64,000 nucleotides of DNA from a virus. The stretch lies in IMG/VR virus record IMGVR_UViG_3300028569_001145, positions 32,001-96,000 of that record; one strand, written 5' to 3'. The notes beneath the pieces were generated by a model. It saw nothing but the letters and a program-made list of their open reading frames with translations, made no database searches and had not been told where the DNA came from. Both the position numbers and the translations under genes were made by a program. Positions 8,010 through 11,491 of the stretch are shown here, one piece after another (position 1 is the first letter of the stretch; every line of letters starts with the position of its first letter).

Positions 8010-8645
8010 ATGAGAGTGAAGTATATGCCTTTGGAGGAACTCCTAGAGTTAGAATCTAGAGGGTTTGTTACCATCTACACCAGTCATAGCCCAACAACCG
8101 ACCAGGAAACCTACACCAAGTTAAACCTAAAGAAGTACCATACTAACTTTCAGGACCTTGCCTTCAAATACCGCAAAGTAAACCTAGGTGAAATCTTAGG
8201 TTTTATCGACTGTGAATACTATTCTGATGTAATCAGTCATGTCAATAAAGAAACTAGGTCTATTACTTGGATATACTTGTATGCTAAAGATATTTCACGT
8301 TTATCTTCTTATGATCTTTCACAATCAAAGGGCAAGTATGTTTACATATTAACAAATGAGGCATATCCTGATATATGTAAGATAGGCAAGGCAGTCAATC
8401 CGTCCGATAGGATCAATCAAATAAACGGTGCCGGAACAGTATCGGAATGGGTTCTTAGGTATGCCCTACCGGTAACAAACGACTATAAGGTTGAGAATCT
8501 GGTTCACCGTCATTTGGCTAATGTCCGTAAGGACTCCGACCAAGGCCATGCCCGGGAGTTCTTTGAGGTGTCTTTGGAGGATGCTATAGAGGCTTTGAAT
8601 TACTACGGTAGGGATTTTTTAGACGGGGAGGCTATTTTTTATTAA
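8010..8645 (+). CDS. T5orf172 (GIY-YIG superfamily) domain protein
   Basis: YVYILTN...CKIGKA...RINQIN...ENLVHRHL...REFFEV. Confidence 0.85.
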   Translation: MRVKYMPLEELLELESRGFVTIYTSHSPTTDQETYTKLNLKKYHTNFQDLAFKYRKVNLGEILGFIDCEYYSDVISHVNKETRSITWIYLYAKDISRLSSYDLSQSKGKYVYILTNEAYPDICKIGKAVNPSDRINQINGAGTVSEWVLRYALPVTNDYKVENLVHRHLANVRKDSDQGHAREFFEVSLEDAIEALNYYGRDFLDGEAIFY

Positions 8646-8914: not shown

Positions 8915-9110
8915 TGAAACTTTTCCTACATAGGACGGATAAGCACCGTTGAAAGAGAACTTGGCTTCGTGGGAGTAGCTACCCAATGAAGTAATCATGT
9001 CCCAAGTTGTAATGTGATGGACCCTGCTCTATGGTGCACTCATAACAGGTGAACAGTAAACTATGTTCAGTCAAATCCACAACTACGGTGAGCGTAGAGG
9101 ATTAGTTTCA
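8915..9110 (+). ncRNA. Candidate ~200-nt structured RNA
   Basis: Closing stem TGAAACT/AGTTTCA with internal helices AACTTGG/CCAAGTT, TGAACA/TGTTCA, AATCC/GGATT, CTACG/CGTAG. Confidence 0.5.
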
Positions 9111-9188: not shown

Positions 9189-9320
9189 CTAAACGTACTT
9201 AGTATCATACCATAAGAACTGCTACTAGGTCTTTTTACAACCTGTACCCTTGAAAAACTCGTATTTAAAGATAAGCAGGTTGGTTCCGAAATAAAAGGGT
9301 AAGAGAATAAGGAACAAAAT

Positions 9321-9393
9321 AGTCAGGTAGCTCAATGGTAGAGCGGGTCCGTAACAGGAGATGCCGTAGCAAGTTCGATTCTTGTCCTGACTA
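9321..9393 (+). ncRNA. tRNA-like unit 1 (73 nt)
   Basis: AGTCAGG/CCTGACT-A acceptor, D arm GCTC-AATGGTA-GAGC, T arm; no canonical anticodon arm. Confidence 0.75.
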
Positions 9394-9418
9394 CAAAAAA
9401 AATTAAAAAATAAATGTT

Positions 9419-9493
9419 ATGAAAGATTATTACATTGACAACAGAGAGTATTACTTATGGTGTATTGAAAATAATGTAATACCATATTGTTAA
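9419..9493 (+). CDS. Possible 24-aa peptide inside the tRNA-like array
   Basis: MKDYYIDNREYYLWCIENNVIPYC after an A-rich leader. Confidence 0.35.
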   Translation: MKDYYIDNREYYLWCIENNVIPYC

Positions 9494-9498
9494 AATAT

Positions 9499-9581
9499 AG
9501 TCAGGTGGCGGAATGGTAGACGCTCCGGGGAATGGACACCGGTTAGAAACCATGTTGCAGGTTCGAATCCTGTCCTGACTA
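9499..9581 (+). ncRNA. tRNA-like unit 2 (83 nt)
   Basis: AGTCAGGTGGCGGAATGGTAGACGC...CAGGTTCGAATCCTGTCCTGACTA. Confidence 0.8.
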
Positions 9582-9665
9582 CAAAGTGTTGTTCCATTGA
9601 GAACGGAATGTATAAGAGTAAGACTAAACGTTGCTACAACACAGAGGATTTCTCACCCTCAACAT

Positions 9666-9762
9666 AGTCAGGTGGCGCAATTGGCAGACGTTGTTCCGAA
9701 GTACAAGGAATGTAAAATGGGTTCATACTCATAGCATGCAAGTTCGAATCTTGCCCTGACTA
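9666..9762 (+). ncRNA. tRNA-like unit 3 (97 nt)
   Basis: Same ends; T stem covaries (GCAAG/CTTGC). Confidence 0.8.
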
Positions 9763-9816
9763 CAAATTCAGTTATCGGTGGGCAAGTCTGAATTAAAACA
9801 AAATCTTGCCCAACAT

Positions 9817-9980
9817 AGTCAGGTGGCGGAATTGTTTGGCGCTGGGATAAAAACTGGGGCCTGAGACATTGGTAGACGCTATTATCTGAGACGCTGGGCG
9901 TGATTCTCGTTCGATTCGAGAAGTAGACTCTGGTGGGAGTAGGCGCAGCTCACTTACAGGTTCGAATCCTGTCCTGACTA
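9817..9980 (+). ncRNA. tRNA-like unit 4 (164 nt) with an extra hairpin insert in the D loop
   Basis: Same ends; ~36-nt insert between GGCGGAAT and TGGTAGACGC plus a long central insert. Confidence 0.8.
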
Positions 9981-10058
9981 CACAGAGTTATCTTATAATT
10001 TATTCTACTCTTTCCAAAAACGGTATAAATTATGGCAGCTTGGAAAGACAAGCAATAC

Positions 10059-10185
10059 AGTCAGGTGGCGGAATGGTAGACGCAGGTTGGTATTAAGTGT
10101 CGGTAATCAAGACGGGTGTATAAGCAATAGAAGCCCTGAGAGAAAAGCACACCTCATCACACAGGTTCGAATCCTGTCCTGACTA
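10059..10185 (+). ncRNA. tRNA-like unit 5 (127 nt)
   Basis: Same ends, unique central insert. Confidence 0.8.
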
Positions 10186-10246
10186 CGGTTCTGTGCTGCC
10201 TAAACGTACAGGAGGATGTCAACTTTCCTCTAACAATAGTTGAGTT

Positions 10247-10319
10247 AGTCAGGTGGCGCAACGGTGACGCTGTGGAGTCGCTCTCTGCATTGATACAGGT
10301 TCGAATCCTGTCCTGACTA
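10247..10319 (+). ncRNA. tRNA-like unit 6 (73 nt)
   Basis: Same ends; central hairpin TGTGGAG-TCGCT-CTCTGCA is not a canonical anticodon loop. Confidence 0.8.
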
Positions 10320-10372
10320 CAAAAATACATCAACGTATTGGGGATCAAACCTCGTTAGGCTCTGGGTATTTT

Positions 10373-10507
10373 AGTCAGGTGGCGGAATTGGTAGACGCTC
10401 ATAAAGTTGTGGAATAGCACTTTGAAAAGAGAAAGCTCACATTATAGTTAGAAGCTATTTATGGATAGTTGCAAATAATACAGGTTCGAATCCTGTCCTG
10501 ACTACCA
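10373..10507 (+). ncRNA. tRNA-like unit 7 (132 nt + encoded CCA)
   Basis: Same ends followed by CCA; unique central insert. Confidence 0.8.
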
Positions 10508-10581
10508 AAAAAAATCGTAGTACCGAAAGGGAACAATGTAGAAGGAACATCTACAGCAGGTTAAGCGATATCCTGTATTTT

Positions 10582-10654
10582 GGACTTTTAGCTTAATTGG
10601 CCAGAGCGTGACACTGATAAAGTCAAGATACAGGTTCAAGTCCTGTAGAGTCCA
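10582..10654 (+). tRNA. tRNA-Ile(GAT)
   Basis: GGACTTT/AGAGTCC acceptor, TGACA-CTGATAA-AGTCA anticodon arm. Confidence 0.8.
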
Positions 10655-10765
10655 CACCTTAAAACCGATTCGGGTTCGTGAACAAGGGAGGCCCGTTCTT
10701 CTCGTGCAAGAAAGAAATCACGTTAAATCTCCTCATTCCAGGTGGCGGCGGTGACCTGGTAATAT

Positions 10766-10873: not shown

Positions 10874-11491
10874 ATGGTTAACATATCAAAGCTTAGAAAA
10901 TATCATTTCCTATACAAGACTACTAATCTTGTAAATGGGAAGTACTACTATGGAATGCATTCAACAAATAACCTTAAAGACGGTTATTTAGGCAGTGGAA
11001 AGTACTTATGGTATGCGATTAAAAAATACGGGAAAGAAAATTTTTACATTGAAATTTTAAAGTTCTTTGAAACAAGGGAAGCTTTAATAGAAGCAGAAAA
11101 GAAACTTGTAACTGTTGTCGAAGTTAATAATTCAAATTGTATGAATTTAAAACCCGGAGGTAAGGGGGGATTTAAAGACTCTAAACATAGGGAAGCTTTT
11201 GTTAATAGTATACCTGTAGATAAAAAAAGAGAATATGCATTTAAAAGACATAAACAAGGTGTTTTCGGTTTTAAAGGTAAAAACCATAAACCTGAAACTA
11301 TTGAAAAGATGAAGTTACATAAAGGTAAACAAGCAAAAGAAAAGAATTCTCAGTTCGGAACAAAATGGATTACAAATGAGATTGAAAATAAAAAAATAAA
11401 AGTTACTGATCAGATTCCAGAAGGATGGAGAGCGGGTAGAAAAATAAAGTTGGATTTTAAGCAAGAAGTTCGTATAATTATAGCAACATAA
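10874..11491 (+). CDS. Seg-like GIY-YIG homing endonuclease with NUMOD3
   Basis: FLYKTTNLVNGKYYYG...YLGSG...AIKKYGKENF; KGKNHKPETIEKM; located inside the tRNA cluster. Confidence 0.88.
   Translation: MVNISKLRKYHFLYKTTNLVNGKYYYGMHSTNNLKDGYLGSGKYLWYAIKKYGKENFYIEILKFFETREALIEAEKKLVTVVEVNNSNCMNLKPGGKGGFKDSKHREAFVNSIPVDKKREYAFKRHKQGVFGFKGKNHKPETIEKMKLHKGKQAKEKNSQFGTKWITNEIENKKIKVTDQIPEGWRAGRKIKLDFKQEVRIIIAT

What the first reader, a model, noticed from the sequence alone, without database searches (positions are those of the whole stretch)
9582..10246. Spacers between tRNA-like units each encode a different small pseudoknot or kissing-loop RNA
Seen: spacer 2-3 has stem GTGTTGT/ACAACAC with loop TGAGAA (9598) complementary to loop TTCTCA (9650) of a second hairpin. 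Spacer 3-4 has stem AATTCAG/CTGAATT with loop TGGGCAAG (9779) pairing CTTGCCCA (9805). Spacer 4-5 has stem ATAATTTAT/ATAAATTAT with loop TCTTTCC (10009) pairing GGAAAGA (10042). Spacer 5-6 has stem GAGGA/TCCTC with loop TCAACT (10219) pairing AGTTGA (10238). Four consecutive unrelated 54-84 nt spacers with crossing helices are unlikely to be filler. Inference: tRNA-type processing of the flanking units would release a library of compact pseudoknotted RNAs. These recall type III toxin-antitoxin antitoxins (ToxI pseudoknots, which some phages mimic) or exonuclease-resistant RNAs.
Basis: partly seen in the sequence, partly recalled or inferred. Interest (0 to 1): 0.78.

Follow-up and report, generated by a model that had tools for sequence, protein, structure and literature searches.

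The report
Knotted leader RNAs between tRNA-like genes
The gaps between the tRNA-like genes of this uncultured phage hold small folded RNA modules, and one belongs to a large uncatalogued family of knotted RNAs that many phages place directly in front of tRNA genes; nothing ties them to toxin-antitoxin antidotes and their job is unknown.

Summary
The four spacers are unrelated to each other. Against shuffles, crossing helices are significant for spacers 3-4 and 4-5 and marginal for 2-3 and 5-6.

Comparative evidence separates them:
- Spacer 2-3 belongs to a widespread RNA family (over 120 IMG/VR contigs, no Rfam match). It has a three-way junction and a 6-7 bp loop-loop knot. The only two natural variants of the knot carry matched changes on both strands.
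- Spacer 4-5 carries the conserved hairpin of a second widespread family. Its knot is unique to this phage and is not a family feature.
- Spacers 3-4 and 5-6 are rare modules (2 and 4 relatives). Their knot strands are kept, but no covariation is available.

In other phages all four module types also sit 0-6 nt upstream of a tRNA or tRNA-like gene. Leader positions -1, -2 and -4 are conserved in a way that fits RNase P cutting.

The modules are best read as structured, excisable leaders. The ToxI comparison fails on repeats and toxin gene. The exonuclease-block idea is untested. Other follow-ups in this scan reported similar module chains in phage tRNA arrays on other DNA.

The parts
9499..9582 (+). 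tRNA-like unit 2, the upstream boundary of spacer 2-3
   Evidence: Shared 23-nt 3' end. ARAGORN and Rfam tRNA hits.
9586..9662 (+). Family A RNA in spacer 2-3. P1 is 9586-9592 with 9636-9642. P2 is 9593-9595 with 9605-9607. The variable hairpin is about 9617-9635. P4 is 9644-9647 with 9657-9660. The loop-loop knot is 9598-9603 with 9650-9655.
   Evidence: Covariance model R1 scores it 75.6 bits, E 8e-13. Pair counts on 112 matches. Matched double change in the knot in L014 and L239.
9666..9763 (+). tRNA-like unit 3. Its insert (about 9692-9717) repeats the family A P2 stem with a different loop.
9764..9816 (+). Spacer 3-4: an H-type knot. S1 is 9765-9771 with 9788-9794. S2 is 9779-9786 with 9805-9812. 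The third loop is A-rich and 10 nt long.
   Evidence: 0 of 500 shuffles match it. There is an identical copy in L381. The variant L423 keeps 6 of the 8 S2 pairs.
9817..9981 (+). tRNA-like unit 4
9995..10033 (+). AU-only hairpin of spacer 4-5. Its loop (10009-10015) is complementary to the family B loop.
   Evidence: This complementarity is not conserved in the family.
10033..10055 (+). Family B leader hairpin. The stem is 10038-10042 with 10049-10053, the loop is 10043-10048, and the flanks are conserved.
   Evidence: Exact match to the family pattern, which is found in over 120 IMG/VR contigs. The stem covaries. It occurs once in the window.
10059..10186 (+). tRNA-like unit 5
10187..10246 (+). 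Spacer 5-6. Hairpin H1 is 10191-10196 with 10206-10211. S1 is 10212-10216 with 10226-10230. Knot helix S2 is 10219-10224 with 10238-10243.
   Evidence: Four relatives: L410, L414, L416, L419. H1 covaries at 3 pairs and S1 at 1 pair. S2 is invariant.
10247..10320 (+). tRNA-like unit 6, the downstream boundary

Best explanation
The four spacers are structured 5'-leader modules of a co-transcribed array of tRNA-like genes. Each comes from a different, recombining module family that phages place 0-6 nt in front of a tRNA-shaped gene.

Shown:
- The modules recur in other phages in the same position.
- Spacer 2-3 folds as a three-way junction locked by a loop-loop knot.
- The spacer 4-5 hairpin and the spacer 5-6 hairpins are kept through compensatory changes.

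Inferred:
- RNase P cuts at the 3' edge of each module.
- 3'-end processing of the upstream unit, which has no encoded CCA, cuts at the 5' edge.
- Compact RNAs of about 55-85 nt are therefore released.

Inferred with less weight: their first role is in cis. Seven neighbouring units share the same acceptor and T arms. A fast-folding knot next to each cleavage site would keep these units from mispairing and would fix the processing sites. The near-invariant loops of family A suggest that it also meets a specific partner.
For: Family A:
- The 5' half is found in over 120 IMG/VR contigs.
- 112 model matches are 94.9% paired. P4 has GC-to-AU changes (11) and GC-to-UA changes (7). The P1 3' strand shows G-U wobbles. 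The knot is over 90% paired.
- The only two IMG/VR variants at the central knot position both carry the matching change on the other strand.

Position of family A:
- Of 67 unique type-a copies, 34 have a tRNA or unit starting 17-30 nt after P1, which is right after P4.
- 13 have a tRNA 3' end 2-4 nt upstream.
- 26 of 72 are followed directly by the same kind of tRNA-like unit.

Family B: the stem covaries, with six or more pair types.

Spacer 5-6 family: the hairpins covary.

Leaders of 311 units: U at -1 in 85%, A at -2 in 74%, A at -4 in 70%. From memory, this fits known bacterial RNase P leader preferences.

Crossing helices that end within 12 nt of the unit are enriched among 280 leaders. 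12.5% reach p<=0.05 and 3.9% reach p<=0.01. In controls these figures are 5% and 1.25%.
Against: - There are no RNA data, so transcription, cutting and stability are all inferred.
- The cis role does not explain why family A loops are almost invariant across very different phages.
- About a third of family A copies, and all 29 type-b copies, are not next to a recognised tRNA.
- Family B also lies in front of protein genes and in long ORF-free regions.
- Most leaders (about 88%) show no significant crossing helices, so a knot is not required in front of a unit.
- The knots of spacers 3-4 and 5-6 have no covariation.
- The knot of spacer 4-5 is private to this phage.
Confidence: 0.5

Rival explanations
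1. The released modules act in trans as decoys or regulators, for example against host RNA-directed or tRNA-directed defence nucleases. Type III antitoxin mimicry, is one special case.
For: - Family A loops are nearly invariant. Only 2 of more than 120 contigs vary at the central knot base.
- Family A also occurs away from tRNAs.
- The P2 loop looks like an anticodon loop.
- An earlier follow-up in this scan (e1-6016009) reported a known RNA antitoxin in the same kind of slot in other phages.
Against: - There are no tandem like repeats.
- No ToxN-type gene is in the record (control silent).
- No Rfam antitoxin family was hit in the window or in about 30 related loci.
- No target is known.
Confidence: 0.2
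2. The knots are mechanical roadblocks to exonucleases, like viral xrRNAs. They would protect neighbouring RNAs or themselves.
For: - Family A joins a three-way junction with a long-range knot. This is broadly like flaviviral xrRNA topology (compared from memory).
- Spacers 3-4 and 5-6 are compact H-type knots with A-rich third loops.
- Other follow-ups in this scan report coremin-like knots in phages.
Against: - Nothing matches an Rfam family at E<=5.
- The family B loop does not fit the YGAD or YGNNAD loop rule, and it lacks the conserved spacer of coremin (PMC6546385, PMC10520033).
- The coremin-like core is not enriched in the window.
- If RNase P removes the leader, the leader cannot shield the downstream RNA.
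Confidence: 0.12
3. Apart from spacer 2-3, the crossing helices are chance or historical residue. Spacers 3-4, 4-5 and 5-6 would be decayed pieces of tRNA-like units and shuffled modules whose knots have no function.
For: - The spacer 4-5 knot is seen in 1 of 80 family members, which is what chance predicts.
- Spacer 3-4 resembles the ends of unit 3, with p about 0.02.
- The spacer after unit 7 holds a degenerate T arm.
- L423 loses both terminal pairs of the spacer 3-4 helix.
Against: - Spacer 3-4 beats all 500 shuffles.
- The knot strands of spacer 5-6 stay invariant in five phages while the adjacent stems change.
- Both modules keep their place in front of a unit in other phages.
Confidence: 0.15
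4. Family A is a self-cleaving ribozyme that trims neighbouring tRNA precursors.
For: - The loops and junctions are very highly conserved.
- The spacing to tRNA ends on both sides is fixed.
Against: - No known ribozyme family matches.
- The helix order does not fit HDV-like, pistol, twister or hatchet folds (my comparison, from memory).
- Leader positions -1, -2 and -4 point to RNase P.
Confidence: 0.03

Closest known systems
Phage T4 RNAC and RNAD (species 1 and 2 RNAs) of the tRNA gene cluster
   Same: Small stable non-tRNA RNAs encoded among phage tRNA genes and matured with them. Their function is still unknown (PMC9697503).
   Different: There is no sequence or fold relation. The modules here are shorter (55-85 nt), knotted, and placed as leaders directly in front of tRNA-shaped genes.
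ToxI and other type III antitoxin RNAs
   Same: Small pseudoknotted RNAs cut out of a longer precursor. Phages are known to mimic them (from memory).
   Different: ToxI is a tandem array of near-identical 36-nt repeats next to its toxin gene and is cut by the toxin itself. Here the spacers are unrelated to each other, no toxin gene is present, and the flanks are tRNA-type processing sites.
Exonuclease-resistant RNAs (flaviviral xrRNA; coremin or xrRNA-C of plant viruses)
   Same: Compact knotted folds. Family A combines a three-way junction with a long-range loop pairing. Family B shares a short purine-rich core with coremin.
   Different: The helix order differs from flaviviral xrRNA. The family B loop breaks the YGAD/YGNNAD rule and lacks the conserved coremin spacer (PMC6546385, PMC10520033). 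Resistance has not been tested.
Upstream pseudoknot domains in front of plant-virus tRNA-like structures
   Same: Pseudoknots placed directly 5' of a tRNA-shaped RNA (from memory).
   Different: Those are 3' ends of RNA virus genomes that act in translation and replication. There is no homology, and here the knot is probably cut away by RNase P.
Lambda-type boxB hairpins
   Same: Family B is a 5-bp hairpin with a purine-rich GA-type loop and conserved flanks (resemblance from memory).
   Different: The loop is 6 nt with a different sequence. No N-like protein or boxA partner was identified. Family B usually sits in front of tRNAs.

Membership tests
Type III antitoxin RNA (ToxI-like) | Tandem array of near-identical short repeats | tested here: not met
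   No tandem repeats in 9200-10700. The spacers are pairwise unrelated.
Type III antitoxin RNA (ToxI-like) | Adjacent endoribonuclease toxin gene (ToxN/AbiQ type) | tested here: inconclusive
   PF13958 gave no match in the 104.7-kb record, but the control genomes were silent too. The neighbouring ORFs are a T5orf172 protein, a WYL_2 protein or unassigned.
Type III antitoxin RNA (ToxI-like) | Match to a curated antitoxin RNA family | tested here: not met
   No Rfam match in the spacers, even at E<=5.
Coremin / xrRNA-C | First hairpin with a YGAD or YGNNAD loop | tested here: not met
   The family B loop begins with a purine and does not fit either rule.
Coremin / xrRNA-C | Conserved 8-10 nt spacer followed by a second hairpin | tested here: not met
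   The core with its spacer is not enriched in the window and is absent from the spacers.
Any xrRNA | Stalls a 5'-to-3' exonuclease | not testable with these tools
   This needs an enzyme assay.
Family A (defined here: P1, P2, variable arm, P4, loop-loop knot) | All four helices and the knot present; scored by model R1 | tested here: met
   Window 9586-9666 scores 75.6 bits over the full model. Helices are as.
Family A | Lies directly 5' of a tRNA-shaped gene on the same strand | tested here: met
   Unit 3 starts 24 nt after P1. Unit 2 ends 3 nt before P1.
Family B (defined here: conserved-flank hairpin) | Exact family pattern with a paired stem, a few nt before a tRNA-shaped gene | tested here: met
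   10033-10055 matches the pattern. Unit 5 starts 3 nt later.
H-type pseudoknot (spacers 3-4 and 5-6) | Two crossing helices with loop lengths that allow stacking | tested here: met
   Loops are 7, 1 and 10 nt in spacer 3-4 and 2, 1 and 6 nt in spacer 5-6.
H-type pseudoknot (spacers 3-4 and 5-6) | Covariation in the knot-forming helix | tested here: inconclusive
   The helix is invariant in 5 sequences for spacer 5-6. For spacer 3-4, one variant loses both end pairs.

The most novel reading that the evidence does not exclude
Family A and the tRNA-like units form one phage system. In it, the leader RNA presents an anticodon-loop-like hairpin locked onto a matching loop, next to leucine-type tRNA bodies. 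It would act as a decoy or sensor for host factors that read tRNA anticodon arms, such as defence nucleases or the translation machinery.
Probability: 0.08. Interest if true: 0.85.

Novelty: new variant of a known kind. Interest (0 to 1): 0.6.

Why it matters
Phage tRNA clusters are usually read as codon-usage helpers. Here, and in hundreds of uncultured phages, they also carry families of small folded RNAs that no catalogue lists.

Family A is abundant, sharply conserved, restricted to phages and tied to tRNA-shaped genes. That makes it a good candidate for a new functional RNA class, whether as a processing signal, a decoy or a roadblock.

Family B also occurs in cultured Vibrio, Erwinia, Salmonella and Bacillus phages, so it can be tested at the bench now.

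Tried and rejected
- Rfam at gathering and at relaxed thresholds found nothing in the spacers.
- GenBank phages hold no family A copy.
- Literature searches for a prior description found none.
- A test for a general rule, that every leader is knotted, gave only a two- to four-fold enrichment.
- Loop complementarity across family B is at chance level.
- A scan for spacer 5-6 relatives with its stem fixed gave only chance hits.
- Most hits of the spacer 3-4 scan were simple palindromes.
- I considered a sigma-70 or phage-type promoter reading of the conserved sequences. I dropped it because the stems covary and the P1 3' strand shows G-U wobbles.
- I considered HDV-like or theta ribozyme mapping and dropped it on helix order.
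- A link of type-b copies to tmRNA holds only for a few loci.

Full report
CONTEXT

The window is part of a 104.7-kb IMG/VR virus record. Between 8747 and 11925 lies a cluster of tRNA genes.

The cluster contains seven tRNA-like units. They share a leucine-type D arm and a nearly fixed T arm and acceptor end, and they carry very different inserts. The exact 23-nt 3' end of these units occurs in at least 120 IMG/VR contigs, often several times per contig. With relaxed matching I counted 345 units in the fetched loci, 70-233 nt long, of which 311 have unique leaders.

The finding concerns the four spacers between units 2 and 6.

THE OBSERVATION

The spacers are 83, 53, 77 and 60 nt long. They are unrelated to each other and are not tandem repeats.

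I scored the best pair of crossing helices by stacking energy and compared it with 500 dinucleotide shuffles.
- Spacers 3-4 and 4-5 beat all shuffles.
- Spacers 2-3 and 5-6 reach only p about 0.10 and 0.06.
- The combined p is about 3e-5.
- Spacer 6-7 has no crossing helices.

Ordinary nested folding is unremarkable for spacers 2-3 and 5-6. I therefore relied mainly on comparison with other phages.

SPACER 2-3 (FAMILY A)

The spacer aligns with sequences in other contigs. Its 5' half, used as a pattern, hits at least 120 IMG/VR contigs. It matches no Rfam family even at E<=5. It is absent from GenBank phages. In 185,579 species genomes it occurs only on nine MAG contigs, three of them Bacteroidota.

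A covariance model found 112 matches in the loci. Counted on that alignment, the proposed structure is 94.9% paired.
- P4 shows many two-sided changes.
- P2 shows a few two-sided changes.
- The 3' strand of P1 shows G-U wobbles. These keep pairing only in RNA of this strand.

The loop-loop helix is over 90% paired. Its 5' strand was fixed by my search pattern, so I ran a separate scan that allowed any other base at its central position. That scan returned only two contigs. Both carry the matching change in the partner loop, in otherwise different sequence contexts. The knot is therefore real and under strong selection.

In 49 whole contigs that carry the tRNA-like units, 11 hold family A, with one or two copies each.

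POSITION OF FAMILY A

There are 67 unique copies of the main type.
- In 34 of them, a tRNA or tRNA-like gene starts 17-30 nt after P1, which is right after P4.
- In 13 of them, a tRNA 3' end lies 2-4 nt upstream.

Of 72 copies inspected, 26 are followed directly by a unit of the same kind as in this window. At least four more are followed by ordinary leucine-type tRNAs, and a few by other tRNAs. The rest are followed by further conserved modules and then a unit.

A second type has a different 3' part and a conserved upstream hairpin. It is never next to a tRNA. In some loci it lies 100-260 nt upstream of a phage tmRNA, but not in 15 others.

SPACER 4-5 (FAMILY B)

The 3' third of this spacer is a hairpin with conserved flanks. 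It occurs in at least 120 IMG/VR contigs. It also occurs in 92 GenBank phage records, always in unannotated DNA: Vibrio 59, Erwinia 21, Salmonella 5, Bacillus 2 and others.

The stem covaries freely. The hairpin usually ends 3-6 nt before a tRNA or tRNA-like gene. It also occurs in front of protein genes and inside long ORF-free regions.

Among 80 non-redundant family members, upstream complementarity to the loop is at chance level: 12 observed against 9.7 expected for five or more bases. This window is the only member with seven. The knot is therefore not a property of the family. It may be a local addition or an accident.

The hairpin shares a short purine-rich core with the plant-virus coremin element, a lead from earlier notes of this scan. 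It fails the loop rule and lacks the spacer that define coremin.

SPACERS 3-4 AND 5-6

Spacer 3-4 has one identical copy in IMG/VR (L381), in front of a different unit. It has one variant in a metagenome (L423), with no unit upstream. In the variant the 8-bp knot helix loses both end pairs and keeps six. The third loop stays A-rich. The spacer weakly resembles the ends of unit 3 (p about 0.02), so it may descend from a collapsed unit.

Spacer 5-6 has four relatives, each in front of a unit. A second scan that left the knot free found the same four. The upstream hairpin covaries at three pairs and the knot's first stem at one pair. Both strands of the second helix are invariant. That is consistent with a knot, but it does not prove one.

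HOW GENERAL IS THE PATTERN

The 311 unique leaders fall into families A (22) and B (23) and 221 further clusters. Crossing helices that end within 12 nt of the unit reach p<=0.05 in 12.5% of 280 leaders and p<=0.01 in 3.9%. In random segments of the same loci the figures are 5% and 1.25%. Knotted leaders are therefore recurrent but not the rule.

Leader positions -1, -2 and -4 are U, A and A in 85%, 74% and 70% of units. The trailers begin with the discriminator and one C but have no CCA. From what I know of bacterial RNase P and CCA-less tRNA genes, this fits cutting by RNase P at the unit's first base, with 3'-end processing followed by CCA addition.

MECHANISM

The best reading is that the spacers are modular, structured leaders that are excised when the flanking units are matured.

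A cis role is plausible. All seven units carry the same acceptor and T arms, so neighbours could mispair in the precursor. A compact knot at each junction would act as an insulator and a fixed landmark.

This does not explain the near-invariance of the family A loops. Those suggest recognition by a partner, so a trans role is a serious rival.

The ToxI comparison fails on repeats, toxin gene and processing sites. Exonuclease blocking remains possible but is untested. A ribozyme role is unlikely.

RELATION TO OTHER WORK IN THIS SCAN

Other follow-ups reported chains of conserved folded modules in phage tRNA arrays on other DNA, and named the T4 RNAC and RNAD RNAs as the nearest known case. I agree with that comparison (PMC9697503).

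One of them reported a known RNA antitoxin in such a slot. I found no Rfam antitoxin hit in the window or in about 30 related loci.

Noticed in passing
window 9692-9717 versus 9589-9612: The insert of tRNA-like unit 3 repeats the stem of the family A P2 hairpin and its flanks, but with a different 9-nt loop. L144 shows the same arrangement. This suggests exchange between leader modules and unit inserts.
   Followed up: partly
window 9596-9604 and family A alignment A6: The P2 loop of family A looks like an anticodon loop: an invariant U, then a leucine-type triplet, then two A. It pairs with a loop that holds the matching codon. The two natural variants switch both to an isoleucine-type pair.
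   Followed up: partly
window 9239-9313: The stretch in front of unit 1 is another conserved module, found in at least eight other contigs (L055, L052, L151, L212, L108, L079, L012, L225).
   Followed up: partly
window 9013-9075: A freshwater-1 RNA (RF02979, 72.3 bits against a cut-off of 72) lies between tRNA-Thr and tRNA-Met.
   Followed up: no
window 10506-10581: The spacer after unit 7 holds a degenerate T arm. Its similarity to the unit ends beats all 300 shuffles, so it is probably a decayed unit.
   Followed up: partly
window 10874-11491 and 8010-8645: ORFs sit inside and beside the tRNA cluster. One carries a T5orf172 domain. The other has no Pfam match but, read by eye, has an N-terminus that resembles GIY-YIG homing endonucleases, reminiscent of segB in the T4 tRNA cluster.
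   Followed up: partly
L189, L150, L126, L213; L194:3961-4386: The second type of family A lies upstream of phage tmRNA genes, with a further conserved long-range helix in between. One such locus also holds a GOLLD RNA.
   Followed up: partly
L391:917-1933 (Bacillus phage 022DV001): An ORF-free region of about 1 kb lies behind a sigma-A-like promoter, after the capsid protease gene. It contains the family B hairpin and has no Rfam match. It may be a large unknown RNA.
   Followed up: no
units in all loci: The trailers of the tRNA-like units start with the discriminator A and a conserved C, then AAA or UAA. CCA is never encoded.
   Followed up: partly
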